This document shows positions 25,340-36,082 of a stretch of DNA of 64,000 nt, in pieces (within the stretch, counting starts at the first letter, position 1; each line of letters starts with the position of its first letter). The notes beneath the pieces were generated by a model. It was not told where the DNA came from. It made no database searches and saw only the letters and a program-made list of their open reading frames with translations. Made by a program: the position numbers and the translations under genes. Origin of the DNA: a virus. Taxonomy: Duplodnaviria; Caudoviricetes. The stretch is taken from positions 1 through 64,000 of IMG/VR virus record IMGVR_UViG_3300013121_000005; one strand, 5' to 3'.

Positions 25340-25402
25340 AGATCGAATGCTACACAGGACTACATCCGATTAATGCATGTCTTGTGCACTACTTGTCGAT
25401 CT
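25340..25402 (+). ncRNA. Y RNA-like #1 (minimal)
   Basis: AGATC-GAATG-N11-TACA...CTTGTC-GATCT. Confidence 0.8.
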
Positions 25403-25405
25403 TTT

Positions 25406-25477
25406 GCTCCCTTAGACTACTGGCTAGGTCGGCGCCCTTTCAAGGCGTAGGAACGGGATCGATACCCGTAGGGAGTA
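25406..25477 (+). tRNA. tRNA-Glu(TTC)
   Basis: Cloverleaf, T-loop ATCGATA. Confidence 0.85.
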
Positions 25478-25680
25478 CTGGGTGAGGTTAGAAACGGCGG
25501 GGTAGGTGGAGTTCGCACCTATCTGACACAGACCTCCTAGCTAGGGGGTAAAGTCTGAGACCAATATGGGATAGACCTCATCCAACTTGTTGAGGTGTGA
25601 TTCAGCAGAGGGTCTGTTGGGTCACAACGGGTGTCGAGAACTCAACCGGCTGCTGGGGCCGTACCCGTACCAGCACTTTT

Positions 25681-25751
25681 GCGGGTATTACTCGAAGGTC
25701 GAGTGTCTGCCTTCCAAGCAGAATGTGAGGGTTCGATTCCCTCTATCCGCT
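25681..25751 (+). tRNA. tRNA-Gly(TCC)
   Basis: Cloverleaf. Confidence 0.9.
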
Positions 25752-25792
25752 CCGTGGTGAATAGGCTCATTCTTTTGCTTCTGGGGGTTCCA

Positions 25793-25957
25793 ATGATCTG
25801 CATGTACTGCCTGGGGTGCTCGTTCTGTTCTGATCGCGAAGAGTCCCTCGCTGAGAAGAGAGAGCGTGTCCGAAAGGAAGATGCCGCCATGCGAGAGCAT
25901 GGCCTCCCCACCCTCAGTGTGAAGATGAAGGAGTTTTTCATTAAGCCCAGAACATAA
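25793..25957 (+). CDS. small Cys-rich hypothetical protein
   Basis: MICMYCLGCSFC...; 54 aa. Confidence 0.45.
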   Translation: MICMYCLGCSFCSDREESLAEKRERVRKEDAAMREHGLPTLSVKMKEFFIKPRT

Positions 25958-25969
25958 CCCCTGACTTAT

Positions 25970-26042
25970 GCCAAAGTAGCTCAAATGGTAGAGCAGTGGA
26001 CTGAAAATCCGCGTGTAGTTGGTTCGATCCCAACCTTTGGCA
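25970..26042 (+). tRNA. tRNA-Phe(GAA)
   Basis: Cloverleaf. Confidence 0.92.
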
Positions 26043-26043
26043 C

Positions 26044-26185
26044 TGCGATGAATGCTTGGAGGACTACATCGACCTGAGGCTTACGAGCCTGGTTCCTTGC
26101 GGGGGCAGATCCCGCCTTGACGGCGCAAGCCTTCAAGACCGGCACTTAGAAGGGAACCTGCTGTCCTCTACTTCTTGTCGTCGCA
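26044..26185 (+). ncRNA. Y RNA-like #2 (non-tRNA cargo)
   Basis: TGCGAT-GAATG-N10-TACA...CTTGTC-GTCGCA. Confidence 0.8.
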
Positions 26186-26189
26186 AACT

Positions 26190-26327
26190 TTCGTGGTGAA
26201 TGTCGAATGGACTACATGCAATTCAAGCCGGTAACGTTGGTTCAAATCCAACCTCCTGCTCCAACTTATGCGGGGGTCGTCTAGAGGTAGGACACCGTAG
26301 GGTCTTTTCACTTCTTGTCATCACGGA
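26190..26327 (+). ncRNA. yrlA: Y RNA #3, YrlA-type (permuted tRNA mimic)
   Basis: Y stem enclosing T-arm, loop-closed acceptor stem, then D-arm. Confidence 0.85.
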
Positions 26328-26332
26328 ATTTT

Positions 26333-26352
26333 CGGGCGTATAGCCTAGTGGT
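26333..26352 (+). pseudogene. 5' tRNA fragment upstream of an HNH gene
   Basis: CGGGCGTATAGCCTAGTGGT, then breaks off. Confidence 0.45.
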
Positions 26353-26378
26353 TCTGATAATCTTTCGATGGGTTTATC

Positions 26379-26795
26379 ATGACTGTGAAGGATCAAAAAT
26401 ACTGCCCACGGTGCGATACCACCAAGCCTGAGAGCCAGTTTCACAAGCGGGGGGCGTTCCTGATGGGGTACTGCAAGCCCTGCCAGTGTTCGTACGTGGT
26501 CCAGACCAAGAAGAAGCTGTTGGCTCATTTGCGAGGCATCGTCCGGTCAGCCAAGGACAACCCATGTTCCGACTGCGGGGAGCGACACCCGTACTGGGCG
26601 ATGGACTTCGACCACCGAGACCCCGCTCTCAAGAAGTTTGAGATCGGCCAGCTCGGAAGAATTTGTCCCTCTGAGGAGCGTCTCAGAGGAGAGCTTGCAA
26701 AGTGCGATCTCGTATGCGCCCTTTGCCACCGCTACCGAACCAACGGGCAGCGGAGATCACTGGCACGTAGTTCAACGGTTAGAACGCACGTCTGA
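26379..26795 (+). CDS. HNH endonuclease (paralog 2)
   Basis: CSDCGE...MDFDH...KCDLVCALCH; stop lies inside tRNA-Ile. Confidence 0.85.
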   Translation: MTVKDQKYCPRCDTTKPESQFHKRGAFLMGYCKPCQCSYVVQTKKKLLAHLRGIVRSAKDNPCSDCGERHPYWAMDFDHRDPALKKFEIGQLGRICPSEERLRGELAKCDLVCALCHRYRTNGQRRSLARSSTVRTHV

Positions 26796-26837
26796 TAAGC
26801 GTGAGGTTTGGAGGTTCGATTCCTCTCGTGCCAACCA
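26761..26837 (+). tRNA. tRNA-Ile(GAT)
   Basis: Cloverleaf, CCA. Confidence 0.9.
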
Positions 26838-26897
26838 GGTGTTGTTCAGCGGGTCCTCGGGGAGCTTGGAGCCCCGGTGATCACTGAAAAATACCTG

Positions 26898-27038
26898 AAT
26901 ACCGAATGTCAAAGGGACTACAGCCCCCGCCATGAGCCCCGGAGTCGTCTCCGAGGTTCATGGGGGGCTTCGGTTGTGGTCGCCTTCAAAAAGCGAATCG
27001 CCTCCGAGCGAAAGTCTCTGAGGTTCCTTGTCGGTATT
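26898..27038 (+). ncRNA. Y RNA-like #4 (non-tRNA cargo)
   Basis: AATACC-GAATG-N10-TACA...CTTGTC-GGTATT. Confidence 0.8.
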
Positions 27039-27040
27039 TT

Positions 27041-27111
27041 TGGGGAATCGTCTAAAGGCAGGACGCGGGATTTTGATTCCCGCTATCTAGGTTCGACTCC
27101 TAGTTCCCCAG
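27041..27111 (+). tRNA. tRNA-Gln(TTG)
   Basis: Cloverleaf. Confidence 0.9.
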
Positions 27112-27117
27112 CTACAT

Positions 27118-27191
27118 AGAGGTAACAGTCATGGTGACGGCGGAGCCTCCAAAACTCTAGCGAGCGGGTTCGATTCCTGCTACCTCTGCCA
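27118..27191 (+). tRNA. tRNA-Trp(CCA)
   Basis: CT-CCA-AA loop, CCA end. Confidence 0.8.
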
Positions 27192-27192
27192 C

Positions 27193-27268
27193 GGGTCTCA
27201 AGCAATTGTGGTCAATGCGCTGGTCTGAAAAGCCAGACAACTCGGTTCGATCCCGAGGGGGCCCACCA
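27193..27268 (+). tRNA. tRNA-Phe(GAA)
   Basis: Cloverleaf, CCA. Confidence 0.88.
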
Positions 27269-27426
27269 CGACGAATGCTGTCGAGGACTACACCGCACAT
27301 AACGGGGTGGTCGCGAGGTTCGACTCCTCGCTCCCGTAGCCAAGCCTTCAATTTGTTGAGGGCTTGGCTACGGGATAGCTCAGTGGTAGAGCACCTAAAA
27401 GTTGTCTTCGCGATCCTTGTCGTCGT
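27268..27426 (+). ncRNA. yrlA: Y RNA #5, YrlA-type with extended acceptor stem
   Basis: ACGAC-GAATG...GGTTCGACTCC...long hairpin...TAGCTCAGTGGTAGAGC...CTTGTC-GTCGT. Confidence 0.88.
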
Positions 27427-27429
27427 AAT

Positions 27430-27506
27430 CGGGGTGTGGCTCAATCTGGTAGAGCATTCCGTTCGGGACGGAAAGGTTGGACGTTCAAATCGTCTCACCC
27501 CGACCA
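27430..27506 (+). tRNA. tRNA-Pro(CGG)
   Basis: Cloverleaf, CCA. Confidence 0.9.
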
Positions 27507-27743
27507 GGGAAAGAGCAGAACATCGGGTAGCTCCGGTGTTTGTCGGGCGGTGAGTGCTCACCGACAGCTTGGACCCTGACCACTTTCAATGCCTCTGGAG
27601 CCAGATGGTCTGGCGAGGCAAAGGACCTCCTTGGAGGAAAGGCCCCTGAGACCCCGGGGGAGCTTGGAAGAGGGGCTTGCTCTCCCGCTCCGTGAGGCCG
27701 CCAAGGGCCGTCGGACGGGAGGGCGGCCCCTAGGGGTCACTTT

Positions 27744-27826
27744 ATCACTGTGGAGAAATTGGAAGCCTCGCAGCAGCCCCGCTGTGCTCCTTTGGGGGCG
27801 TCCAGGTTCGAGTCCTGGCGGTGACA
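27744..27826 (+). ncRNA. Leu-type tRNA-like RNA without a canonical anticodon loop
   Basis: Leu-like D- and V-arms, 6-nt loop AGCCCC. Confidence 0.65.
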
Positions 27827-27881
27827 CTTTTTTCGGCTGGTGGTTGTGTAATTGGTGTATCGTTCGTTGATCGTTCGTTGA

Positions 27882-27966
27882 GTTCAGATGGCGGAATGGC
27901 AGACGCAGTGGATTTAAAATCCACCGCTCCTCGTGGGCGTGAAGGGTTCGAGTCCCTCTCTGAACA
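27882..27966 (+). tRNA. tRNA-Leu(TAA)
   Basis: Class II cloverleaf. Confidence 0.9.
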
Positions 27967-28136
27967 CAAAGAGGTGTGCGCACACCTCTTAGAGCCGAAA
28001 AGTCCCAATTAGGAGCTTGGCTGCAAACTTGAGGTCACTTGGTAGTGTGGAGGGCTTAGATCCTCCTCTTTGGTTCGATCCCAGTAAGGGCCTCAAATTT
28101 TTGCTGAGGTGTGTGCAACACGTTTTGGCTCGATTT

Positions 28137-28223
28137 GCTCAGATGGCGGAACTAGGCAGACGCGGCGGCTTCAAACTCCGTTGTCCTTGTGGCGTGAGGG
28201 TTCGATTCCCTCTCTGAGCACCA
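28137..28223 (+). tRNA. tRNA-Leu(CAA)
   Basis: Class II cloverleaf, CCA. Confidence 0.85.
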
Positions 28224-28227
28224 ACTA

Positions 28228-28336
28228 GATCGAATGCATGAAGGGTTTACATCCTGCCGATTAGGAAGGCGTGGTTCGATTCCACCCTAAACCAAAGGGG
28301 GCTGGTGCCTCCGTAACTCTTCACTACTTGTCGATC
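28228..28336 (+). ncRNA. Y RNA-like #6 (T-arm remnant)
   Basis: GATC-GAATG-N11-TACA...GGTTCGATTCC...CTTGTC-GATC. Confidence 0.8.
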
Positions 28337-28347
28337 AAGTTGAATCT

Positions 28348-28422
28348 CGGGGTGTAGCTTAGCCTGGCAAAAGTGCTCGTCTGGGGGACGAGAGATCACA
28401 GGTTCAAATCCTGTCATCCCGA
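28348..28422 (+). tRNA. tRNA-Pro(GGG)
   Basis: Cloverleaf. Confidence 0.9.
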
Positions 28423-28428
28423 CTGTAT

Positions 28429-28500
28429 GGGCTGGTAGTTCAGTGGTAGAATGCTTCTTTGACACGGAAGAGATCGGCGGTTCGACCCCGCCCCAGCTCA
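28429..28500 (+). tRNA. tRNA-Val(GAC)
   Basis: Cloverleaf. Confidence 0.9.
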
Positions 28501-28502
28501 CT

Positions 28503-28722
28503 GTCTCGAATGCTGATTAGGAGTACATATCCATAAAGGCCCTAAGGTAGCGATGTTCCCGCGAGGGACTAGCGACGGCACCAATCCCAGACCCCAAGCG
28601 GTAATACGCCGGGTCAGAGACTCTATGAGTCAAAGGTGCGGGACGAGCGGTGGCCATCCCACAAGGAACCACAATGCGTCGGCGGAGCGAAAGCTCCTTC
28701 TCTTAATCGAACTTGTCGAGAT
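28503..28722 (+). ncRNA. Y RNA-like #7 (largest, ~170-nt non-tRNA cargo)
   Basis: GTCTC-GAATG-N11-TACA...CTTGTC-GAGAT. Confidence 0.8.
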
Positions 28723-28730
28723 TTTTCAAT

Positions 28731-28812
28731 GCGCAAATGGCGGAATGGCAGACGCACTAGCTTGAGGTGCTAGCGGTTAACAACCATGGGGGTTCAATTC
28801 CCCCTTTGCGCA
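28731..28812 (+). tRNA. tRNA-Leu(GAG)
   Basis: Class II cloverleaf. Confidence 0.9.
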
Positions 28813-28813
28813 C

Positions 28814-28877
28814 TACTACTGAATGCAGTTGAGAGTACATTTCGGTACATGCCTCTCAACTATTCTTGTCAGTGGTA
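28814..28877 (+). ncRNA. Y RNA-like #8 (minimal)
   Basis: TACTACT-GAATG-N10-TACA...CTTGTC-AGTGGTA. Confidence 0.8.
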
Positions 28878-28881
28878 TCTT

Positions 28882-28964
28882 GCTCAAGTGGCGGAACTAG
28901 GCAGACGCAGTTGGTTCAGAACCAGCCGGGTAAAACCGTAGGGGTTCGATTCCCCTCTTGAGCA
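28882..28964 (+). tRNA. tRNA-Leu(CAG)
   Basis: Class II cloverleaf. Confidence 0.9.
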
Positions 28965-28965
28965 C

Positions 28966-29115
28966 TCACCGTGAATGATGCTTTGGACTACATGTAAAAT
29001 TCAGTCTTTGAGGGTTCGAGTCCCTCTCTGGCTCTTAGGAGTCAGGTGGTGGAATTGGCATACACACTGAAAGCCGAAAGGCATGCGTCCTTGGGCAAAA
29101 AACTTGTCATGGTGA
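28966..29115 (+). ncRNA. yrlA: Y RNA #9, YrlA-type (Leu-like D-loop)
   Basis: T-arm GAGGGTTCGAGTCCCTC, closed acceptor, D-arm GTGGAATTGGCATACAC inside the Y stem. Confidence 0.85.
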
Positions 29116-29119
29116 ATTT

Positions 29120-29193
29120 CGGAGCGTAGCTCAGTCTGGTAGAGTACATGCTTTGGGTGCATGGTGTCGCTGGTTCGATTCCAGTCGCTCCGA
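29120..29193 (+). tRNA. tRNA-Pro(TGG)
   Basis: Cloverleaf. Confidence 0.92.
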
Positions 29194-29228
29194 CTAGGAT
29201 GATATGGAAAGCCTGTCATCCGTTTTTT

Positions 29229-29315
29229 GGATGGTAAACTGGCCAGGGGCCGGGCCTACCTCGAAAGTAGTGCGCACCTCGAAAGGGGTGTGGGGTTCGA
29301 GACCTCTACCTTCCG
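29229..29315 (+). tRNA. tRNA-Ser(CGA), 8/4 fold
   Basis: 8-bp acceptor, 4-bp T-stem, long D-stem. Confidence 0.8.
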
Positions 29316-29324
29316 CTGGTTATT

Positions 29325-29411
29325 GGAGGATGATCCTAACAGGGTTAGGGCCTGCCTGGAAAGCAGTGCGCACCTCGAAAGGGGTGTGGGGTTCGACTCC
29401 CTCGTCTTCCG
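29325..29411 (+). tRNA. tRNA-Ser(GGA), 8/4 fold
   Basis: As above; V-arm identical to that of Ser(CGA). Confidence 0.82.
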
Positions 29412-29936
29412 CTACTGGTGTTCCCAACAGGGGATACAGCGGGGTTCGTAGATATCCAACCCCCCAACCAGTACCTTTTCGTTGCTGAGTACTTTCCGGT
29501 GGGTCCTTGTGGCGCTTTGTCCGCAAATTGAACACCGGGCTTGGAGACGGCGAACTTCGTTCGCCATGCTGATAAATTCTGGCATGGGTCCGAATGGTGC
29601 CCCAAAACAGTCTAAGTCTAGGCCCGTAAGAATGACGGTTGTGCCGTGGGCAAGTAACTTACCTACAACTTCGATAGCTTGAGGCTCAAGGAACTGAGCC
29701 TCATCGATTGCTACAGTTCCCCCTGGCCATACTTGGTCCAGTCGCGGGGATACCCAACTAGCAAAGACTTTACGCCCTGCATGGGAGATTACGTTGGTGG
29801 TATTGGAGTGTCGGGTATCGATGGTGGGCTTGTAGACTCGTACTACATCTTTTGCAGCTAGTACTAATTCAATTAGCCCTTCCGTTTTACCTGCGAACAT
29901 AGGACCACATAGGACCGTGAGCTTGCCGAGGGTCAT
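29412..29936 (-). CDS. tdk: thymidine kinase
   Basis: GPMFAGKT, IDEAQF, GLDLD, C-terminal Zn Cys. Confidence 0.93.
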   Translation of the reverse strand: MTLGKLTVLCGPMFAGKTEGLIELVLAAKDVVRVYKPTIDTRHSNTTNVISHAGRKVFASWVSPRLDQVWPGGTVAIDEAQFLEPQAIEVVGKLLAHGTTVILTGLDLDCFGAPFGPMPEFISMANEVRRLQARCSICGQSATRTHRKVLSNEKVLVGGLDIYEPRCIPCWEHQ

Positions 29937-29964
29937 CGAGGGTCCTTGGGTATCAGTAGATAAT

Positions 29965-30054
29965 GGAAGTAGAATCGGCCATGGGGCCGAGCCTGTTTGC
30001 TAAACAGTGTCGATCGGCGATGAGTCGATTGGGGTTCGAGTCCTCCTGCTTCCG
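29965..30054 (+). tRNA. tRNA-Ser(GCT), 8/4 fold
   Basis: GGAAGTAG/CTGCTTCC acceptor, 4-bp T-stem. Confidence 0.82.
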
Positions 30055-30058
30055 CTAT

Positions 30059-30145
30059 GGGTGGGTTGTCTTTTCCGGTCTTGTCATCGCTCTTTCGGGG
30101 GTCGATGAATGTTGGTGAGGACTACATAAGCAATCGGTACCACCC
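30059..30145 (+). ncRNA. Y RNA-like #10, circularly permuted
   Basis: CTTGTC-ATCG precedes CGAT-GAATG-N11-TACA, joined by a TTCG hairpin. Confidence 0.72.
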
Positions 30146-30179
30146 TGGGTCGGCCTTCGGGCCGACCCCCGATTCCTAT

Positions 30180-30252
30180 GGTGAGTATCGCCTTCTGGAG
30201 AGGGCGCCTGGTTGTGGCCCAGGTAAGGCGGGTTCGATCCCCGTTGCTCACC
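30180..30252 (+). tRNA. tRNA-His(GTG)
   Basis: G-1/C73, cloverleaf. Confidence 0.9.
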
Positions 30253-30254
30253 CC

Positions 30255-30381
30255 GCAGTAAATGCTGATAAGAGTACAACCCAATCATAAGTGCGAGTTC
30301 AAGTCCCGCTCAGTACGTAAGTGCTGATAGCTCAAGTGGTAGAGCATTGATCCCAAACCTCTTGTCGTCTCTTGTTACTGC
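30255..30381 (+). ncRNA. yrlA: Y RNA #11, YrlA-type
   Basis: GCAGT-AAATG...CTTGTT-ACTGC (compensatory A-U pair); T-arm, GTAA-closed acceptor, D-arm. Confidence 0.82.
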
Positions 30382-30384
30382 AAT

Positions 30385-30466
30385 GCCCTCGTAGCCTAGT
30401 GGATAAGGCGCGAGTTTCCTAAACTCGTGACGAGAGTCATCGTAGGTTCGAGTCCTACCGAGGGTG
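30385..30466 (+). tRNA. tRNA-Arg(CCT) with long variable arm
   Basis: V-arm TGAC-GAGA-GTCA. Confidence 0.85.
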
Positions 30467-30736
30467 CTAGAGTATTCTCTTGTGTAGCTTTTGAAGGGCA
30501 GCCGCTTCAATCTGTCGAACTCGTTCTCGGGTAACCCCAAGAATAGCTCCGACTTCCTCCAAAGTCATTCCTCCTTCATCTGCTACGTCTAGTACGCAGG
30601 AGTAGGGGGTCCCTTCGAGGAAGTACCTGCATTGGGGAAATGGGCATGGTCTGGATTCATTGGGTCCTCCGGGTAGGCAGTCTCCGCGAACCTGAGGGAG
30701 GATAGGTAAGTGCATAGCTTGGGTCACGATTTCCAC
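30467..30736 (-). CDS. sigma-70 region 4 HTH protein
   Basis: MTLEEVGAILGVTRERVRQIE. Confidence 0.8.
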   Translation of the reverse strand: MEIVTQAMHLPILPQVRGDCLPGGPNESRPCPFPQCRYFLEGTPYSCVLDVADEGGMTLEEVGAILGVTRERVRQIEAAALQKLHKRIL

Positions 30737-30780
30737 CTTTACACCAGGTGGGTGACCTTACGAGTGAGGTAGGGTGATTT

Positions 30781-30852: not shown

Positions 30853-30907
30853 CTACTATTGAGTTGAATTGGGGTTCCCCTTAGCTTAGGGGGTTTCAGT
30901 GTGTTTT

Positions 30908-30979
30908 GCCCTCGTACGCATCTGGTGAGGCGGCTCCACTGTCTATGGAGCGAGGTCGGTTCAATTCCGGTCGGGGGCG
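30908..30979 (+). tRNA. tRNA-Asp(GTC)
   Basis: Cloverleaf. Confidence 0.85.
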
Positions 30980-31000
30980 CTACGGTAATCTTGTCCTAGG

Positions 31001-31501
31001 GTGTTCATGGGTAAAGCCATGGCAGACTCGGATAATCGAAATGGTGGTAACTGCACCGGCAGCAAACCTAGGTGTACTTCTGGGGAAGACTTAGATAATG
31101 AGGTTAGTCCACAGATAGAGGAAGACCCTTTCTTGAAGTGGGCAGAGGGGGACCCTGTTACGACGGAGGACTTACGCGAGGGTTTGGTAACTTGTTCAAA
31201 GTACGTGCAGGCATCCCTGCAAAGTACAATCAAACTCTCTAGTGAGTTACGAAGGATCCTTCCATCGATCCAGGTGATGTCGGATCAGATCAAGGTTCTT
31301 GGTCCAAAAGTGGAGTCTAATGCTCGGTCTGTTGACCAGTTGGACCAAGAGTTGGTCAGTATCAGGCGAGACCTTCATGAGGTTCGTAAGGCAGTACAGG
31401 GTTTGCAAGTAGACATGGAGTATGTTAAAGGTCGCGTAGACCTTCTTCCTGGAATCGCATCCTTGTTAGGTGAGGTTATTGGGCGTTTGCCTAGTAAGTA
31501 G
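31001..31501 (+). CDS. hypothetical coiled-coil protein
   Basis: Heptad repeats; start uncertain. Confidence 0.6.
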   Translation: MFMGKAMADSDNRNGGNCTGSKPRCTSGEDLDNEVSPQIEEDPFLKWAEGDPVTTEDLREGLVTCSKYVQASLQSTIKLSSELRRILPSIQVMSDQIKVLGPKVESNARSVDQLDQELVSIRRDLHEVRKAVQGLQVDMEYVKGRVDLLPGIASLLGEVIGRLPSK

Positions 31502-31512
31502 TAGTGTTACAA

Positions 31513-31585
31513 GGGGCTGTAGCTCATCTGGGAGAGCGCCTGGTTTGCATCCAGGAGGTAAGGGGTTCGAGTCCCCTCAGCTCCA
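31513..31585 (+). tRNA. tRNA-Ala(TGC)
   Basis: G3:U70, cloverleaf. Confidence 0.93.
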
Positions 31586-31602
31586 CTGCGGGGATTGGTT
31601 AT

Positions 31603-31676
31603 TCGGGTGTCGTTCAAGGGTAGGACCGGAGACTTTGAATCTTCAGATCGTGGTTCGATTCCACGCGCCCGAACCA
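31603..31676 (+). tRNA. tRNA-Gln(TTG)
   Basis: Cloverleaf, CCA. Confidence 0.88.
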
Positions 31677-31769
31677 CTAGACTTCTTCTTGTAGGTGCTG
31701 TAATGTACGGCACGCCGGTTGAGAGCCTGGTTGGGGAAACTTCGGTAACGGTCTAAATCGTGGTGAAAT

Positions 31770-31842
31770 GGGGCTGTAGCTCATCTGGGAGAGCGCTTCC
31801 ATGGCATGGAAGAGGTAAGGGGTTCGAGTCCCCTCAGCTCCA
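31770..31842 (+). tRNA. tRNA-Ala(GGC)
   Basis: Cloverleaf; body nearly identical to Ala(TGC). Confidence 0.93.
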
Positions 31843-31984
31843 CTGGGGTCAAATGCTTGTGGGGTCTACATTCAAGGTAGAAAACAGACTCCGCTGCCAC
31901 TTGTTGGCCCTAATCTGCGTCTCCAGCACAACGGAGGGCGACACCTGCCAAAGTGGTGTGGCCGCTGGGGAGAGTCCCGCCAAT

Positions 31985-32057
31985 GGGGCCGTAGCTCATC
32001 TGGGAGAGCGCTGCCTTCGCAAGGCAGAGGTGGAGGGTTCGAGTCCCTTCGGCTCCA
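31985..32057 (+). tRNA. tRNA-Ala(CGC)
   Basis: Cloverleaf. Confidence 0.92.
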
Positions 32058-32061
32058 CAAC

Positions 32062-32180
32062 GGGCGTGTAAGCTCAAGTTCCTCGGGGTTCGCTCACGTG
32101 GTTGATGGCGCCGTCAGCACGAGGGAGGGTAGAGCTAGGGCCGAAAGCCCTGTGTGCTGGTTCGAGTCCGGTCACGTCCA
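32062..32180 (+). ncRNA. tRNA-like RNA with ~48-nt D-loop insertion and 5-nt anticodon loop
   Basis: GGGCGTG/CACGTCC acceptor, canonical T-arm, AGGGC-CGAAA-GCCCT. Confidence 0.72.
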
Positions 32181-32197
32181 CTGGTGTAAGGGGTCCT

Positions 32198-32473
32198 ATG
32201 ACTCTCGATCAAGTTCAGACGGTTTTAGTAGCCTATGAAGAGCGCCTTCGTGAGCTGGAAGCGGATCCCAAGAGGGCCGACACAAGCCTCACACGACCTT
32301 CTGAGGCTCAGGCTCTTAGGCATCTGGCTTGGATGTGTCAACAGATGCGTGAGGTTCTTAAGTCGGACTCCCCGAATTCTGAGAAAGTTGCAAGGTGGCT
32401 TGGATTTGTCCAAGGGGTCTCTTGGATGACGGGGCTTTTTTCGATTGATGAAATGCGGGATCACAACCGCTGA
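32198..32473 (+). CDS. hypothetical phage protein
   Basis: HLAWMC...RWLGFVQG; GGTGTA 9 nt upstream. Confidence 0.7.
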   Translation: MTLDQVQTVLVAYEERLRELEADPKRADTSLTRPSEAQALRHLAWMCQQMREVLKSDSPNSEKVARWLGFVQGVSWMTGLFSIDEMRDHNR

Positions 32474-32482
32474 AATGAGTTT

Positions 32483-32555
32483 GGGGATGTTGGGGAATTG
32501 GAACCCCACCGAGTTGTCTACTCGATTTATGCGGGTTCGAGTCCCGTCATTCCCG
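32483..32555 (+). tRNA. tRNA-Asp(GTC)
   Basis: Cloverleaf. Confidence 0.82.
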
Positions 32556-32573
32556 CTGTGTCGTGTGTTCAAT

Positions 32574-32647
32574 CGGAGTGTGGCGAAGTCTGGTATCGCA
32601 CTGCGTTCGGGACGCAGGGTTCGGAGGTTCAAATCCTCTCACTCCGA
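32574..32647 (+). tRNA. tRNA-Pro(CGG)
   Basis: Cloverleaf. Confidence 0.9.
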
Positions 32648-32796
32648 CTGGTTCTGGTGGGGCAGTTGACTGCCAGAACCTACTTTCTGCGCGAGGGCGG
32701 CGGGAAGTTTGATGGGGAGCCTCTGCACCACATAATTGTCAGATGGATGTAAGCTCCCAAGTCCTCCGGTTCTGGTTTTTATACCTGAACCGTTTT

Positions 32797-32865
32797 GGGC
32801 TTGTGTAGAAGGCTACCATCTTCCCTCGCACGGAAGGTGTACGGGAGCGTTACCCGTCAGGTCCA
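32797..32865 (+). tRNA. tRNA-Ala(CGC), atypical T-loop
   Basis: G3:U70; T-loop AGCGTTA; reduced D-arm. Confidence 0.65.
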
Positions 32866-32900
32866 CTAGGAGTAAGTAGTAGGTTTGTTGACTTAATTTC

Positions 32901-32973
32901 GCCCACTTAGCTCACTTGGTAGAGCAGCGCCCTTGTAATGCGCAGGTAGTCGGTTCGATTCCGACAGTGGGCT
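32901..32973 (+). tRNA. tRNA-Thr(TGT)
   Basis: Cloverleaf. Confidence 0.9.
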
Positions 32974-32979
32974 CTGTTT

Positions 32980-33050
32980 GCGGGTATCGTCTAGAGGCAA
33001 GGCCCGAGCCTTCCAAGCTCGTGACGAGGGTTCGACTCCCTCTACCCGCT
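32980..33050 (+). tRNA. tRNA-Gly(TCC)
   Basis: Cloverleaf. Confidence 0.9.
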
Positions 33051-33078
33051 CTGTTGGTAAACCTCTTGTGGTTTTACC

Positions 33079-33606
33079 ATGCTTGTGAAGACCTGCAACC
33101 CGTGTGGTCGAACCCTACCTGAGACTGAGTTTCACTGGCGCAGCAAGGCCAAAGGGCTTCGGATCTCTTGGTGTCGTGAGTGTGCAAGCAAGAAGTCGAA
33201 GGCGCACTACAAGACGAACAAGTCAATGTACTTGCGGAAGACCGCGAAGCACACCAAGCGGATCCGCGCAGAGCTAGCGAGCAAGATTCTCGATTACCTC
33301 AAGGTACACTCGTGCGTTGACTGCGGAGAGGCTGATCCCGTGGTGCTCCACTTCGACCATGTACGGGGGAGGAAGGCGTTCAACATCGCGAAGGCGTCTG
33401 CGAAGGGTTTTGCTTGGGCGCATGTTGAGGAGGAGATTCAGAAGTGTGATGTTCGGTGTGCCAACTGTCACATGAGAAAGACGGCTAAGGACTTCGGTTG
33501 GCGCAAGCTACTTTTTGCCCGTGAGGCTCCTGTGGAGGAGCGCCATCTTGGTAGGATGGAGTCAGAGGGTTCGACTCCCTTCGCGGGCTCTGATCCGAAC
33601 GAATGA
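33079..33606 (+). CDS. HNH endonuclease (paralog 3)
   Basis: CVDCGEADPVVLHFDH...KCDVRCANCH; reads through tRNA-Thr. Confidence 0.85.
   Translation: MLVKTCNPCGRTLPETEFHWRSKAKGLRISWCRECASKKSKAHYKTNKSMYLRKTAKHTKRIRAELASKILDYLKVHSCVDCGEADPVVLHFDHVRGRKAFNIAKASAKGFAWAHVEEEIQKCDVRCANCHMRKTAKDFGWRKLLFAREAPVEERHLGRMESEGSTPFAGSDPNE
33517..33589 (+). tRNA. tRNA-Thr(GGT)
   Basis: Cloverleaf. Confidence 0.85.
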
Positions 33607-33664
33607 CCGTGGGGCTACATTGACTTGTAGGTTCGAGTCCCGGATCCTCTTGTGGTTCGGGTCA
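33591..33664 (+). ncRNA. Y RNA-like #12 (short, divergent)
   Basis: TGATCCGAAC-GAATG-N10-TACA...CTTGTG-GTTCGGGTCA. Confidence 0.68.
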
Positions 33665-33667
33665 GGT

Positions 33668-34021
33668 ATGATCTATGAGTACCGTGCTAAAGCTTTCCGG
33701 GTTGTGGATGGAGATACAGTTTGGCTTGAGGTGGACCTTGGTTTCCATGTCCGAGTTACCTTGGAGTTTCGCCTTGAGGGGTTGAATACGCCAGAGGTAC
33801 TTGGTCCACAGAAAACAGCCGGGTTGGCAGCTAAGGACGAATTGTCACGACTTCTTGGTTTGGGTGACCTTCGAGTGGTGTCTAGTAAGACAGAGAAGTA
33901 TGGGCGCTACCTTGCAACGTTGTATGTGACCCCTACAAATCAACCAGAGATTAACGTCAACCAGGCACTTCTAGATGGCGGTTTCGCAAAACCTTATCTA
34001 GGTTTAGGGCCGAAGTTGTAG
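33668..34021 (+). CDS. thermonuclease (SNase) family protein
   Basis: RVVDGDT, RLEGLNTPE, KYGRYLA. Confidence 0.9.
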   Translation: MIYEYRAKAFRVVDGDTVWLEVDLGFHVRVTLEFRLEGLNTPEVLGPQKTAGLAAKDELSRLLGLGDLRVVSSKTEKYGRYLATLYVTPTNQPEINVNQALLDGGFAKPYLGLGPKL

Positions 34022-34115
34022 GTCTTCAAGGTACCAATGGTGGTACCTTGGGGTGGTGGACACGGCGGGTAACCGTCGCCCCCGAAGGGTCGGAGTAAAA
34101 CCCGACCCTTCATTT

Positions 34116-34187
34116 GCGGGTGTAGCTCAGTGGTAGAGCATCGGCTTCCCATGCCGAACGCCGAGGGTTCGAGTCCCTTCGCCCGCT
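34116..34187 (+). tRNA. tRNA-Gly(CCC)
   Basis: Cloverleaf. Confidence 0.92.
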
Positions 34188-34188
34188 C

Positions 34189-34293
34189 TGAAGTGAATGC
34201 AGGTAGGGGGTACATTTGGTTCGATCCCGAGATCCCGGGCTCTATCCGGGATCGCCTATTGGGGGCAAACTCTTTGCTCCACTTGTCGCTTCA
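34189..34293 (+). ncRNA. Y RNA-like #13
   Basis: TGAAGT-GAATG-N11-TACA...CTTGTC-GCTTCA. Confidence 0.78.
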
Positions 34294-34297
34294 ACAT

Positions 34298-34368
34298 GAC
34301 GGGGTGCTCCGGCGAGTAACGCGGTCTGCAAAACCGCGCAGATGTGGGTTCAACTCCCCTCCCCGTCT
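34298..34368 (+). tRNA. tRNA-Cys(GCA)
   Basis: GCGGT-CTGCAAA-ACCGC, U73. Confidence 0.82.
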
Positions 34369-34388
34369 CCGGTGGTGTAGTTCAAGGC

Positions 34389-34922
34389 GTGAAGAAGAAG
34401 ACCTTCGACCCGAAGTTCGACCCGAAGACGACCACGCTCGCTCAGGCCCAGCAGGTCTTGAAGGACCACGCGGTTGAAGGCGCCGTCTGCCCCTGCTGTC
34501 GGCAGCTCGTGAAGCTTTACGCGAGGGAAATCACTTCCTCGATGGCGTACGTGCTGATCCTGCTGCACCGTCACTTCGAGAAGGCTCCGGACTACATCCA
34601 CGTCCCCAACTACCTCTCGGGCATGACCAAGCTCGGCTCGATGATCCGTGGAGGGGACTTCGCCAAGCTCCGCTACTGGGGGCTCCTGGAAGAGATGCCC
34701 GATGCCAAGCGCACGGACGGGAGCAAGAGAGCCGGGTTCTACCGGATGCCGGAGAAGGGTCACCAGTTCGCGAAGGGGGAGATCAAGGTCCCGAAGACCA
34801 TCTACCTCTACAACGACACCTTCCTTGGTTTCGGCCCCGGGGACACGAGCATCCACGAGTGCCTCGGGAAGGACTTCAACTACGACGACCTGATGGGCCG
34901 ACTAGGCGGCTTCCTCGTCTGA
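34389..34922 (+). CDS. hypothetical phage protein (CPCC, wHTH-like)
   Basis: Strong codon bias; KLRYWGLL. Confidence 0.75.
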   Translation: MKKKTFDPKFDPKTTTLAQAQQVLKDHAVEGAVCPCCRQLVKLYAREITSSMAYVLILLHRHFEKAPDYIHVPNYLSGMTKLGSMIRGGDFAKLRYWGLLEEMPDAKRTDGSKRAGFYRMPEKGHQFAKGEIKVPKTIYLYNDTFLGFGPGDTSIHECLGKDFNYDDLMGRLGGFLV

Positions 34923-34930
34923 CTTCATTT

Positions 34931-35005
34931 GCCCCTGTAGCCAAATTGGATAAGGCAGCCGTCTTCTAAGCGGCAGATTTGCAGGTTCGAGTCCTGCCGG
35001 GGGTG
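34931..35005 (+). tRNA. tRNA-Arg(TCT)
   Basis: Cloverleaf. Confidence 0.92.
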
Positions 35006-35206
35006 CTAGGGTGGCTCGGGGTCTTCTGTGAAGGAGATTTCGTTAAGCTCGTTCGGGTCGAAGAAGTAGGTTAGCCCTCTTTTCACATTTTCACGAGCCT
35101 CCTCCTTAGTCTTCCCTTCAGCATGACAGCCTGGTACAGTGTAAATACTGGCTAGCCAACCGCCCTCAGACAATCCATATGTGATGTGGAAGTTCCGAGT
35201 TGCCAT
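35006..35206 (-). CDS. HicB-like antitoxin N-terminal domain
   Basis: GGW.A...VPGCHAEGKTKEEARENV. Confidence 0.75.
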   Translation of the reverse strand: MATRNFHITYGLSEGGWLASIYTVPGCHAEGKTKEEARENVKRGLTYFFDPNELNEISFTEDPEPP

Positions 35207-35349
35207 CTTGGTAAGAGCGGTCGTATTGGAAGTTTTTCAACTTGACGAAGGGGTAGCGTTACCTTAGCTTCAGATGGTGTTAAAGGGAAACAAGGGCTTC
35301 TTTTTTAGCTTGAAGAACCCAAGGGCTATTCGTTGATAGAGCATGTTTT

Positions 35350-35423
35350 CTCTCCGTCGTGACGGATACACGCACGGGTCTACGAAACCCGTTGACTAGG
35401 TTCGACTCCTAGCGGAGAGACCA
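35350..35423 (+). tRNA. tRNA-Arg(ACG)
   Basis: Cloverleaf, CCA. Confidence 0.85.
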
Positions 35424-35463
35424 TGAGTAGAGACCATGAGTAGATTTTCAATCCATAAGTACG

Positions 35464-35697
35464 GTGAAAGGTGGGACTTATGTGCTGAAACAGCACACTG
35501 GAGGTCCCATGCACATCAATCACCGTCGGAAGAATTTCTATAAGAGTTACCATCCTCGTTGGGGGGTTTCCCTTCATGAGTGGCGACGTAGGTACTGGAA
35601 GGCTGAACGTTCCCGAGTCCATATTGCTATGGCTCAGGCGCAGTTCGATGATCTTCTGGCTAGGCACCCTCAAAGCATTCTTTGGGATGTGTTTTGA
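35464..35697 (+). CDS. hypothetical protein
   Basis: 77 aa ORF between tRNAs. Confidence 0.45.
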   Translation: MKGGTYVLKQHTGGPMHINHRRKNFYKSYHPRWGVSLHEWRRRYWKAERSRVHIAMAQAQFDDLLARHPQSILWDVF

Positions 35698-35721
35698 AAT
35701 CTTGGGTCGAAAGGCCCATCT

Positions 35722-35794
35722 GTCCTCGTAGCCTAGTGGATGAGGCACGGGTTTCCGAAGCCCGGTTACGCAGGTTCGATTCCTGCCGAGGACA
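35722..35794 (+). tRNA. tRNA-Arg(CCG)
   Basis: Cloverleaf. Confidence 0.9.
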
Positions 35795-35928
35795 CTTACT
35801 TTTCAGCCTTTGCGTCTGTGGCCCCCACTTCGACATAGGGGGGCTCTTCAGGGAGGGTGCTTGGGCTGGTGGTGTTGACGTACCCGGTGAGGGTCAGTGC
35901 GATTACTAATCGTTTGGTCCACATGTTT

Positions 35929-36002
35929 GCCCCTGTAGCTCAACTGGATTGAGCGTCGGTCTTCGGAACCGAAGGTTGAAGGTTCGAGTCCTTCCAGGGG
36001 TG
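35929..36002 (+). tRNA. tRNA-Arg(TCG)
   Basis: Cloverleaf. Confidence 0.9.
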
Positions 36003-36004
36003 CC

Positions 36005-36082
36005 GTGCTGAATGTCTGTTAGGACTACATCGTCGAATTGATACTCGATCTAATGATGTCTTAGCAACTTCCTTGTCAGCAC
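36005..36082 (+). ncRNA. Y RNA-like #14 (minimal)
   Basis: GTGCT-GAATG-N11-TACA...CTTGTC-AGCAC. Confidence 0.8.

What the first reader, a model, noticed from the sequence alone, without database searches (positions are those of the whole stretch)
25340..36082. Fourteen Y RNA-like modules in a phage tRNA array, with a phage-encoded Ro60
Seen: 14 elements share [4-10 bp stem]-GAAUG-N10/11-UACA-[cargo]-...-CUUGUC-[stem]. Starts are 25340, 26044, 26190, 26898, 27268, 28228, 28503, 28814, 28966, 30059, 30255, 33591, 34189 and 36005. Stem sequences vary between copies yet stay complementary; #11 has a G-C to A-U change (AAAUG/CUUGUU), and a second helix just before UACA also covaries. Lengths run from 63 to 220 nt. 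Known: bacterial Y RNAs bind Ro60/Rsr through a bulged terminal helix with a GNCGAAN(0-1)G-type 5' strand, and YrlA RNAs carry a tRNA mimic; I recall only one or a few per genome. A Ro60 gene lies at 1831-3495. Inference: one Ro60 plus a library of interchangeable RNA adaptors that recruit different partners or act as decoys during infection.
Basis: partly seen in the sequence, partly recalled or inferred. Interest (0 to 1): 0.95.

Follow-up and report, generated by a model that had tools for sequence, protein, structure and literature searches.

The report
Fifteen Y RNAs in phage tRNA operon
A 363-kb uncultured phage that encodes the RNA-binding ring protein Ro60 also carries, wedged between its tRNA genes, fifteen small RNA genes that share the known Ro60-docking "handle" but display about ten different conserved interiors, the largest such set I found described and a natural test bed for what these RNAs recruit.

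Summary
The window holds 14 canonical elements plus one circularly permuted one. All lie on the + strand at 25,340-36,082, inside a 47-tRNA array.

- **Shared handle.** Each element has a 6-11 bp terminal helix ending in GA/UC, an AUGY loop, a second helix ending in GGAC/GUCU with a conserved G.U pair, then UACA ... CUUGUC. This equals the consensus Ro60-binding module of Rfam YrlA. Four elements give sub-threshold YrlA hits (best 49 bits, gathering score 69).
- **Covariation.** Both helices covary strongly: 96-97% of cells are paired and 12-13 of 15 pairs show compensatory changes.
- **Independent detection.** A model trained only on relatives' elements recovers 14 of the 15 and nothing else in the 64 kb.
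- **Processing geometry.** Twelve elements start -1 to 4 nt after a tRNA 3' end, so tRNA processing would probably release them.
- **Cargo.** Interiors fall into about ten classes that are orthologous across phages. Some are tRNA mimics, some keep only a T arm, and some are unknown folds.
- **Link to Ro60.** Relatives with Ro60 carry at least 7-11 elements. Four complete relatives without Ro60 carry none, despite 32-49 tRNAs. Searching unrelated phage contigs by handle alone found a Ro60 gene in 4 of 5.

Binding, expression and function remain untested. This scan noted similar multi-Y arrays (4-10 copies) in other phages. Verdict: a new variant of a known kind.

The parts
1831..3495 (+). Ro60/Rsr orthologue (554 aa)
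   Evidence: Pfam vWA_Ro60 at 1.2e-17 and a weak TROVE match. Full-length phmmer match to D. radiodurans Rsr (2NVO, E 2.8e-19), Xenopus and human Ro60, and phage phiLo Ro60.
23355..37967 (+). tRNA array (47 tRNA genes, none with encoded CCA at the junctions read) that hosts the Y elements
   Evidence: ARAGORN, Rfam tRNA, and sequence read.
25340..25402 (+). Y1: short hairpin type (63 nt), between tRNA-Glu(ctc) and tRNA-Glu(ttc)
   Evidence: R2 76 bits and R3 53.8 bits. 7-bp terminal helix. Rfam YrlB 24.1 bits.
26044..26185 (+). Y2: class A cargo (structured, not tRNA-like), flush after tRNA-Phe
   Evidence: R2 30.1 and R3 46.1 bits. 8-bp helix. Orthologue in G001.
26189..26328 (+). Y3: class B, YrlA-type tRNA mimic (T arm, closed acceptor hairpin, D arm), 3 nt after Y2
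   Evidence: R2 36.6 and R3 42.9 bits. Rfam YrlA 23.8 bits. Orthologue in G001.
26897..27039 (+). Y4: class C cargo (two long hairpins, not tRNA-like), ends 1 nt before tRNA-Gln
   Evidence: R2 26.7 and R3 49.7 bits. 9-bp helix. Orthologues in G002 and G008.
27268..27426 (+). Y5: class D, the clearest YrlA-type tRNA mimic, between tRNA-Phe and tRNA-Pro
   Evidence: Rfam YrlA 49.2 bits, E 1.5e-8, aligned over the full model. R3 63.1 bits. It is the only element with the literal GNCGAANG motif.
28228..28336 (+). Y6: class E (T arm plus small hairpins)
   Evidence: R2 39.7 and R3 42.0 bits. Orthologue in G002.
28503..28722 (+). Y7: class F, 168-nt cargo of unknown fold
   Evidence: R3 39.3 bits, E 2.3e-9. 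Helices read. Orthologue in G008. No Rfam match.
28814..28877 (+). Y8: short hairpin type (64 nt), between two tRNA-Leu genes
   Evidence: R2 67.5 and R3 44.6 bits. 9-bp helix.
28966..29115 (+). Y9: class G, tRNA-like (T arm, acceptor-like hairpin, D-like arm)
   Evidence: R3 22.7 bits and R2 13.3 bits. Rfam YrlA 21.6 bits. 9-bp helix. Orthologues in G002 and G008.
30059..30145 (+). Y10p: circularly permuted element. The handle is closed by a loop and the ends lie on the cargo side.
   Evidence: Read from sequence. MFE fold with both handle helices, z -2.57. Unique to this genome. Not detectable by the covariance models because of the permutation.
30255..30381 (+). Y11: class H, YrlA-type tRNA mimic with AAAUG/CUUGUU, between tRNA-His and tRNA-Arg
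   Evidence: R2 34.7 and R3 43.9 bits. Rfam YrlA 28.7 bits.
31844..31912 (+).
   Evidence: R1 33.1, R2 61.7 and R3 52.3 bits. 9-bp helix.
33591..33668 (+). Y13: weak variant (CUUGUG) with a T-loop-like cargo, flush after tRNA-Thr(ggt) and just upstream of an SNase-like ORF
   Evidence: R2 18.6 and R3 19.6 bits (E 0.0014). Fold.
34189..34293 (+). Y14: class I (T-arm-like hairpin plus two hairpins), between tRNA-Gly(ccc) and tRNA-Cys
   Evidence: R2 32.3 and R3 41.9 bits. Orthologues in G002 and G001.
36005..36082 (+). Y15: short hairpin type (78 nt), flush after tRNA-Arg(tcg)
   Evidence: R2 57.6 and R3 55.8 bits. 7-bp helix.
9440..11578 (+). HD plus PolyA_pol-head protein (CCA-adding-enzyme type). 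This is context, not a proven part.
   Evidence: Pfam PolyA_pol 2.3e-15 and HD 2e-8.

Best explanation
These are fifteen genes for Y RNAs of the bacterial/phage YrlA-YrlB kind, and they are the RNA partners of the phage's own Ro60 ring protein.

**Shown**
- All fifteen share one constant two-helix handle that matches the Ro60-binding module of YrlA.
- The handle is under structural selection.
- The elements sit flush between tRNA genes.
- Their interiors form about ten distinct classes that are conserved between phages.
- Handle RNAs and Ro60 genes are gained and lost together.

**Inferred**
- The elements are transcribed as part of the tRNA operon.
- The enzymes that trim the neighbouring tRNAs cut them out: RNase Z-type cleavage after the upstream discriminator base, and RNase P at the next tRNA's 5' end.
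- Each RNA then docks on Ro60 through the handle and displays a different interior. These include full tRNA mimics, T-arm-only modules, simple hairpins and three larger unknown folds.
- Each interior either tethers Ro60 to a different partner, such as host PNPase or tRNA-binding enzymes, or gates the ring.
- The net effect would be to retool structured-RNA surveillance and decay during infection, in a phage that brings its own tRNAs, tmRNA and CCA-adding-type enzyme.
For: **The elements are real and clustered.**
- Motif enrichment is 13 observed against 0.57 expected.
- Genome-wide, the sites cluster on one strand.
- Exact terminal helices have different sequences in every copy.

**The handle is YrlA-like.**
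- The Rfam YrlA alignment shows the same consensus: CgaAUGC...CUAc / AcUuGucG.
- YrlA gives hits to Y5, Y11, Y3 and Y9.

**The helices covary.**
- In this genome, 96.4% of cells are paired and 12 of 15 pairs show compensatory changes; slid controls give 35-58%.
- In 30 elements from other genomes, 96.9% are paired and 13 of 15 pairs are compensatory.

**Models cross-detect the elements.**
- A model trained on 4 short copies finds 9 more.
- A model trained only on other genomes finds 14 here and nothing else in the window.

**The protein is Ro60.**

**Handle RNAs track Ro60.**
- Ro60-positive relatives G001, G002, G008 and G011 carry at least 7, 11, 9 and 4 elements.
- Ro60-negative complete relatives G004, G006, G010 and G012 have 32-49 tRNAs. 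They give no hit at E<=1 with filters off over 104 kb of arrays, and no strict-motif hit.
- The two states interleave on a capsid-locus tree with three sister contrasts.
- Of 5 unrelated viral records found by handle alone, 4 encode a vWA_Ro60 ORF.

**Cargo classes are conserved.** Each class is orthologous across genomes and shows compensatory changes.

**Junctions are flush with tRNAs.**
Against: - No transcript, binding or functional data exist. The phage is uncultured.
- No element reaches Rfam's gathering score for YrlA (best 49.2 against 69).
- The literal GNCGAAN0-1G motif is present in 1 of 15.
- The elements lie 22-33 kb from Ro60, not within the 4 kb typical of described YrlA genes.
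- The closest relative, G003, keeps at least 8 good elements while its Ro60 is a remnant: residues 171-217 are fused to 434-554. That record is only about 60% complete.
- Ro60 and the array lie in the same roughly 35-kb block. Part of their co-occurrence could therefore be physical linkage in a recombining module.
- The covariation alignments were fitted to the model structure, which favours pairing.
- No RtcB was found in this record, and no PNPase gene was looked for. Any effector would have to be of host origin or unrecognised.
Confidence: 0.75

Rival explanations
1. The elements are tRNA-mimic decoys or sponges rather than adaptors. Their job would be to soak up a host factor, such as host Rsr, a tRNA-targeting nuclease, or tRNA-modifying or processing enzymes. 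Phage Ro60 would merely stabilise them, or would itself be held inactive ('gated') by them.
For: - Seven of 15 interiors carry a T arm, and four are full tRNA mimics without an anticodon loop.
- They are made in the same operon as the phage tRNAs, so they would be abundant when the tRNAs are.
- A gate role for Y RNAs is proposed in the literature (10.1101/312249).
- G003 keeps its elements with a broken Ro60.
Against: - Eight interiors are not tRNA-like, and three are large, individually conserved folds. A single decoy target does not explain this.
- Strict co-loss with Ro60 in four complete relatives argues that the RNAs are of little use without Ro60.
Confidence: 0.12
2. The handle is a processing or punctuation signal of the tRNA operon. 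It would be read by some factor other than Ro60, for example a phage nuclease. The link with Ro60 would reflect only physical linkage within one recombining genome block.
For: - Elements are flush with tRNA ends.
- Ro60 and the array lie about 16-25 kb apart in G000 and in the four Ro60-positive relatives where the distance could be read.
- An SNase-like ORF lies inside the array.
Against: - The handle equals the consensus of YrlA. Members of that family are shown experimentally to be bound by Rsr in Salmonella and M. smegmatis (PMC4201824).
- Ro60-less relatives process 32-49 tRNAs without any such element.
- Unrelated phage lineages found by the handle also carry Ro60.
- Interiors are conserved as distinct classes, which a simple spacer does not need.
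Confidence: 0.08
3. The elements are decaying tRNA-derived relics or selfish repeats that spread next to tRNA genes, with no function of their own.
For: - One copy is permuted (Y10p) and one is degenerate (Y13).
- Some cargo contains tRNA pieces.
Against: - Compensatory changes occur in 12-13 of 15 handle pairs.
- Each cargo is closer to an orthologue in another phage than to any paralogue. Those phages have Ro60 proteins only about 50% identical to this one. The cargo helices also covary.
- The elements are completely absent from Ro60-less relatives.
Confidence: 0.03

Closest known systems
YrlA / YrlB Y RNAs with Rsr (Ro60) of Salmonella Typhimurium, Mycobacterium smegmatis and mycobacteriophages (Rfam RF02553, RF02565; Chen et al. 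2014, PMC4201824; Wang et al. 2018, 10.1101/312249)
   Same: - Same handle consensus: terminal helix, GAAUGC, second helix, CUAC(A) ... CUUGUC.
- Same modular build of a handle plus an effector domain.
- Four elements have the same permuted-tRNA interior, with the T arm 5' of the D arm and a closed acceptor hairpin.
- Short hairpin members resemble YrlB.
- A Ro60 gene lies on the same strand.
- The elements lie next to tRNA genes. Chen et al. note that some Y RNAs lie next to tRNAs.
   Different: - There are 15 genes, against an average of about 1.3 reported per genome (355 in 276 genomes).
- They lie 22-33 kb from Ro60, not within 4 kb.
- They are embedded flush inside a 47-tRNA operon.
- Most interiors (11 of 15) are not full tRNA mimics, and three classes are larger unknown folds.
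- One member is circularly permuted.
- None reaches the Rfam gathering score.
Thermus phage phiLo Ro60 with Yrl1 and Yrl2 (PMC12135203)
   Same: A phage-encoded Ro60 with phage-encoded Y-like RNAs. Binding, and assembly with host PNPase, were shown in vitro there. This makes the same mechanism plausible here.
   Different: - phiLo has two RNAs directly upstream of its Ro60 gene, and they were defined by a CGAA motif.
- Here there are 15 RNAs, far from the gene, inside the tRNA array, with diversified conserved interiors.
- CGAA is present in the handle of only 6 of the 15.
Deinococcus radiodurans Rsr-Yrn1-PNPase (RYPER) and metazoan Y RNAs (as described in 10.1101/312249 and PMC4201824)
   Same: The same principle applies: a constant Ro60-binding stem plus a variable module that tethers an effector or gates the ring. 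Several Y RNA species share one Ro60.
   Different: - The handle lineage differs. In Yrn1 and metazoan Y RNAs both strands are conserved, with a bulged C.
- The copy number here is about fourfold higher than the four human Y RNAs (four named in PMC4030889).
- Release by tRNA processing is inferred here, rather than transcription from separate units.
Other non-coding RNAs embedded in tRNA arrays, e.g. GOLLD in Mycobacterium and phage tRNA arrays (cited in PMC9569102)
   Same: Structured non-coding RNAs ride in tRNA arrays of phages and mobile elements.
   Different: GOLLD is one large RNA with no known protein partner and no shared handle family.

Membership tests
YrlA-type Y RNA (Rfam RF02553) | Score at or above the Rfam gathering threshold (69 bits) | tested here: not met
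   The best hit is Y5 at 49.2 bits (E 1.5e-8). Y11 scores 28.7, Y3 23.8, Y9 21.6 and Y2 14.5 bits. These are significant as homology but lie below the curated cut-off.
YrlA-type Y RNA (Rfam RF02553) | Terminal helix formed by the 5' and 3' ends that carries the conserved 5'-strand motif GNCGAAN0-1G | tested here: inconclusive
   - A terminal helix is present in 14 of 15, and is closed by a loop in the permuted one.
- The literal motif is present only in Y5.
- The core GAA-N-G is present in 13 of 15, and AAAUG with a compensating CUUGUU in 2.
- The Rfam consensus CgaAUGC / AcUuGucG is matched.
YrlA-type Y RNA (Rfam RF02553) | tRNA-like effector domain: T arm 5' of D arm, with the acceptor stem closed by a loop | tested here: met
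   Met for Y3, Y5, Y9 and Y11. The other 11 elements do not meet it: three have a T arm only, four are simple hairpins, three are other folds, and one is permuted.
YrlA-type Y RNA (Rfam RF02553) | Encoded within about 4 kb of, and on the same strand as, a Ro60 gene (criterion of Chen et al. 2014) | tested here: not met
   The strand is the same. The distance is 21.8-32.6 kb. No model hit lies within 20 kb of Ro60.
Y RNA in general (Ro60 ligand) | Co-occurrence with a Ro60 gene across genomes | tested here: met
   - Ro60-positive relatives have arrays of elements.
- Four complete Ro60-negative relatives have none.
- The tree shows three sister contrasts.
- Of 5 unrelated handle-bearing records, 4 have vWA_Ro60.
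- Exception: G003 has only a Ro60 remnant.
Y RNA in general (Ro60 ligand) | Physical binding to Ro60 through the handle | not testable with these tools
   This needs EMSA or RIP with recombinant Ro60 and handle mutants.
YrlB (Rfam RF02565) | Score at or above the gathering threshold (97 bits); a short Y RNA without a tRNA-like domain | tested here: not met
   Y1 scores 24.1 bits, E 0.58. The architecture (handle plus simple hairpin) is alike for Y1, Y8, Y12 and Y15.
Ro60 / Rsr protein | TROVE HEAT-repeat ring followed by a vWA domain, homologous over its full length to solved Ro60 structures | tested here: met
   - Pfam vWA_Ro60 64.8 bits (cut-off 27.7).
- TROVE 20.2 bits, below its cut-off of 23.
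- phmmer against 2NVO: E 2.8e-19 over residues 20-539.
- Also matches 1YVP, 9NEN and 9KOP.

The most novel reading that the evidence does not exclude
A virus-encoded, multi-adaptor Ro60 system. One Ro60 ring would be served by about ten evolutionarily stable classes of Y RNA, each made in the tRNA operon and cut out by tRNA-processing enzymes. Each class would direct the ring to a different partner or substrate class. Together they would act as a programmable hub for RNA surveillance, decay or repair during infection. The system would be widespread among large phages that carry their own translation-related genes.
Probability: 0.35. Interest if true: 0.85.

Novelty: new variant of a known kind. 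Interest (0 to 1): 0.64.

Why it matters
What Y RNA effector modules bind is a long-standing open question. So is the reason bacterial Y RNAs mimic tRNA (PMC4201824; 10.1101/312249).

This phage clade offers a natural series that bears on it. One constant Ro60 handle carries about ten distinct interiors that are conserved across phages. These range from full tRNA mimics to unknown folds, and their presence tracks Ro60 across sister genomes. The adaptor hypothesis therefore becomes directly testable: pull-downs per cargo class, with handle mutants as controls.

The finding has three further consequences:
- Published searches limited to within 4 kb of Ro60 have under-counted phage Y RNAs.
- Unannotated spacers in phage tRNA arrays can hold functional RNA genes.
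- Huge phages that import tRNAs, tmRNA and a CCA-adding-type enzyme may also import an RNA quality-control machine.

Tried and rejected
1. **MAFFT alignment of the copies.** It misaligned the 3' halves. I bootstrapped covariance models from one copy instead.
2. **Megablast against GenBank phages.** No match. The phage has no sequenced close relative there.
3. **Loose first look of the genome search.** With the RNA model it finds only about half of the elements (6 of 13 here). Counts therefore rest on filter-off searches of fetched arrays.
4. **Rfam on the non-tRNA cargo.** The interiors of Y7, Y2 and Y4 gave nothing.
5. **RtcB.** Absent from this record, so there is no RNA-repair operon context as in Salmonella.
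6. **Y10 as a long nested element.** A 5-bp pairing to 30362 was rejected. That CUUGUC is the second-helix strand of Y11, and the upstream 3' half gives both handle helices.
7. **Possible Y relic in Ro60-less G004.** A relaxed-regex hit after tRNA-Gly(ccc) looks like the start of an ORF and is not an element.
8. **Rfam YrlA hit at 32501-32633 (29.4 bits).** It spans two adjacent true tRNAs. Chen et al. warned of exactly this dimeric-tRNA false positive. It has no handle and was rejected.
9. **Raw 14-base handle pattern in IMG/VR.** Most hits are chance. Only those confirmed by the model were used.

Full report
**Setting.** The window is the first 64 kb of a single-contig, 363,484-bp IMG/VR virus record with 53% G+C. 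All 47 tRNA genes of the genome lie on the + strand at 23.3-38.0 kb, followed by a tmRNA gene at 39,272-39,617.

The ORF at 1831-3495 is a genuine Ro60/Rsr orthologue. Pfam vWA_Ro60 scores 1.2e-17, and TROVE gives a weak match. The protein also aligns over its full length to D. radiodurans Rsr (2NVO, E 2.8e-19), to Xenopus and human Ro60, and to the Ro60 of Thermus phage phiLo.

An HD plus poly(A)-polymerase-head protein of the CCA-adding-enzyme type lies at 9440-11578. At the junctions I read, the tRNA genes do not encode CCA.

- GAATG-N10/11-TACA occurs 13 times, against 0.57 expected.
- Allowing G or A at the first base gives 15 sites. All are on the + strand within 25,345-36,010, while the other 300 kb shows only scattered background hits on both strands.
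- For 13 sites, an uninterrupted 6-11 bp helix joins the bases up to and including the GA of GAAUG to the bases right after a downstream CUUG. Every copy has a different helix sequence.
- Minimum-free-energy folds give the same plan throughout: terminal helix H1; an asymmetric internal loop (AUGY on the 5' side, N3-6 plus CUUG on the 3' side); a second helix H2 ending in GGAC/GUCU; UACA; then a variable interior.

Three corrections apply:
- A fifteenth element at 31844-31912 was missed.
- The element at 33591 is a weak variant.
- The element listed at 30059 is circularly permuted. The 3' strands of H2 and H1 come first, a 13-nt loop closes H1, then the 5' strands and UACA follow. The RNA's ends would lie on a 7-bp stem on the cargo side. 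It is the only such case in the six arrays examined. It looks like the product of a tandem duplication followed by loss of the outer halves. Whether it is functional is open.

**Structure and selection.** MAFFT could not align the 3' halves, so I bootstrapped covariance models.
- A model from one copy found the other three short copies.
- A model from those four (R2) then found nine longer copies over its full length. There was no other hit below E = 1 in the 64 kb.
- On the 13 aligned copies, 96.4% of cells form standard pairs, against 67.6% after shuffling and 35-58% when partners are slid. Twelve of 15 pairs show compensatory changes.
- Thirty elements from four other phage genomes, none used in training, give 96.9% paired and 13 of 15 compensatory pairs. 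They also show a nearly invariant G.U pair in H2.
- A model built only from those 30 foreign elements (R3) recovers 14 elements in this window at E <= 0.0014, including the 220-nt Y7. Nothing else scores below E = 0.7.

One caveat applies. These alignments are fitted to the model structure, which favours pairing. The exact-helix calls are independent of that.

**What are they?** Rfam's gathering thresholds report only tRNAs and the tmRNA. At E-value thresholds the YrlA model hits Y5 at 49.2 bits (E 1.5e-8) over the whole model. It also hits Y11 (28.7), Y3 (23.8) and Y9 (21.6). YrlB hits Y1 weakly.

The printed alignment shows that the YrlA consensus for the Ro60-binding module is CgaAUGC, a helix, CUAc ... 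AcUuGucG. That is the handle shared by all fifteen elements.

YrlA RNAs are the tRNA-mimicking Y RNAs bound by Rsr in Salmonella and M. smegmatis. They are also predicted in mycobacteriophages (PMC4201824; structure in 10.1101/312249).

The literal published motif GNCGAAN0-1G is present only in Y5. The base before GAA belongs to H1 and covaries, so the conserved core here is (G/A)AAUG.

**Interiors.**
- Four elements (Y3, Y5, Y9, Y11) have the YrlA interior: variable stem, T arm, closed acceptor-like hairpin, D arm.
- Three (Y6, Y13, Y14) keep only a T-arm-like hairpin.
- Four (Y1, Y8, Y12, Y15) are simple hairpins, like YrlB.
- Three (Y2, Y4, Y7) carry larger folds with no Rfam match.

Each long interior in this genome is much closer to an interior in another phage than to any paralogue here. 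Normalised alignment scores are 0.24-0.53 for the cross-genome matches and 0.15 or less for paralogues. The orthologous pairs show compensatory changes in the cargo helices. The Ro60 proteins of those phages are only 47-53% identical to this one. The classes are therefore old and individually maintained.

**Placement.** Twelve of the 14 canonical elements begin -1 to 4 nt after the 3' end of an ARAGORN-called tRNA; nine of the twelve are within 0 +/- 1 nt. Y3 follows Y2 by 3 nt. Nine elements end 1-11 nt before the next tRNA (Y13). The same holds in the relatives. From this I infer, but have not shown, co-transcription with the tRNAs and release by the enzymes that trim them.

**Link to Ro60.**
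- Two relatives found through Ro60 (G001, 512 kb; G002, 407 kb) carry at least 7 and at least 11 elements in their tRNA arrays.
- More than 580 IMG/VR contigs share the capsid protein at over 90% identity.
- Among the 19 largest I scanned, Ro60 and the elements appear together in G008, G011 and G018.
- The complete genomes G004, G006, G010 and G012 have no Ro60. They have 32-49 tRNAs each. They give no model hit at E <= 1 with filters off over 104 kb of arrays, and no strict-motif hit on either strand.
- On a tree of the capsid locus, the two states interleave with three supported sister contrasts: G008+/G006-, G011+/G010-, and the G002 clade+/G004-. The pairing has therefore changed state several times. 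This rests on a single locus.
- Independently, I scanned IMG/VR with a 14-base handle pattern and kept only model-confirmed hits. This found multi-copy arrays in other viral records: six in tandem in a 190-kb genome, and four, three and two in others. Four of the five records I checked encode a 534-573-aa vWA_Ro60 protein.

Three caveats apply to this link:
- G003, the closest relative, keeps at least 8 well-scoring elements while its Ro60 is a remnant, with residues 171-217 fused to 434-554. That record is about 60% complete.
- Ro60 lies about 16-25 kb from the array in G000 and in the four Ro60-positive relatives where the distance could be read. Linkage within one block may therefore add to the signal.
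- Fragmentary records cannot be scored.

**Mechanism.** The best-supported reading is as follows.
- These are Y RNAs of the YrlA/YrlB lineage.
- They are produced from the tRNA operon.
- Each docks on the phage Ro60 through the constant handle.
- Each presents a different interior that tethers a partner or gates the ring.

This is as shown or proposed for Yrn1-Rsr-PNPase, for YrlA, and in vitro for phage phiLo Ro60-Yrl-PNPase. I put about 0.75 on their being Ro60-bound Y RNAs, and about 0.35 on the stronger claim of a multi-partner adaptor library.

The rivals are a decoy or gate role, a Ro60-independent processing signal, and relics. Each is weighed in its own section of this report.

**Novelty.** Ro60 plus one or two Y RNAs in phages is published (PMC4201824; PMC12135203). 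So is the observation that some Y RNAs lie beside tRNAs (10.1101/312249). In four full-text searches I found no description of any of the following:
- ten or more Y RNA genes in one genome;
- such genes lying flush inside a phage tRNA operon tens of kb from Ro60;
- about ten conserved interior classes, including non-tRNA folds;
- a permuted member.

Chen et al. reported only hits within 4 kb of Ro60, which would have missed all of these.

Earlier notes of this scan describe comparable arrays of 4-10 handle-bearing RNAs beside Ro60-like genes in other phages. The phenomenon is therefore recurrent. This case is the largest noted in this scan so far, and it carries the canonical YrlA handle and a canonical Ro60. 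I class it as a new variant of a known kind.

Noticed in passing
window 30059-30145: One handle element is circularly permuted. The 3' strands come first, the terminal helix is closed by a 13-nt loop, and the open ends lie on a 7-bp cargo stem. A strong UUCG hairpin follows at 30147-30169. No counterpart was seen in five related arrays.
   Followed up: partly
L101:4010-4520 (G003, closest relative): The Ro60 gene is reduced to a remnant, with residues 171-217 joined to 434-554. The same record still has at least 8 well-scoring Y elements in its tRNA array (L099). This could be a recent loss, a second copy in the missing 40% of the genome, or use of a host Ro60.
   Followed up: partly
window 28503-28722 and L097:16473-16745(-): The class F interior (168-221 nt) is highly conserved between two phages whose Ro60 proteins are about 47% identical to each other's counterpart here. 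It has no Rfam match. It is an unknown structured RNA domain mounted on the Ro60 handle.
   Followed up: partly
handle helix 2, e.g. window 25357-25360 with 25379-25382: A G.U wobble pair in GGAC/GUCU is kept in 9 of 13 copies here and in 27 of 30 copies in other genomes. Neighbouring pairs covary freely. It is a likely protein-recognition point.
   Followed up: no
window 39272-39617: Phage-encoded tmRNA (Rfam 114 bits) just downstream of the tRNA array. Relatives G001 and G002 also have one, with different tag peptides.
   Followed up: no
window 9440-11578: 712-aa protein with an HD domain and a poly(A)-polymerase head domain (CCA-adding-enzyme type). This fits tRNA genes that do not encode CCA.
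   Followed up: no
window 29412-29936 (-) and 33515-34021 (+): Protein genes sit inside the tRNA array. One is a thymidine kinase (Pfam TK, 7e-32) on the opposite strand. The other is a staphylococcal-nuclease-like ORF (5e-7) whose likely start lies just after Y13.
   Followed up: no
window 26379-26795 and 33079-33606: Two similar Cys-rich ORFs lie inside the array, with paired CxxC motifs and an HNH-like D-H...C-H pattern by eye. Neither has a Pfam hit. They may be homing endonucleases.
   Followed up: no
window 27117-27188, 29965-30053, 29204-29290: tRNA-like stretches that ARAGORN does not call. Two of them score 32-36 bits with Rfam's tRNA-Sec model. They may be odd long-arm tRNAs or pseudo-tRNAs.
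   Followed up: no
G000 bases 1-100 and 363385-363484: The last roughly 97 bases repeat the first bases of the record, offset by 3, with three mismatches. The record may therefore be a complete genome with terminal repeats, although it is labelled linear and 76% complete.
   Followed up: no
L135:6308-7028 (190-kb viral record G022): Six handle elements lie in an uninterrupted tandem row in an unrelated, lower-GC phage that also encodes a 537-aa vWA_Ro60 protein. Similar clusters occur in G023, G024 and G025.
   Followed up: partly
L090, L095-L096 (Ro60-less relatives G010, G004): Their tRNA arrays still contain 16-18 spacers of 55-300 nt that are not Y elements. These spacers may hold other unannotated small RNAs.
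   Followed up: no
window 5633-6598 and 7719-8180: A papain-family cysteine protease-like ORF and an S-adenosylmethionine decarboxylase ORF lie between Ro60 and the tRNA array.
   Followed up: no
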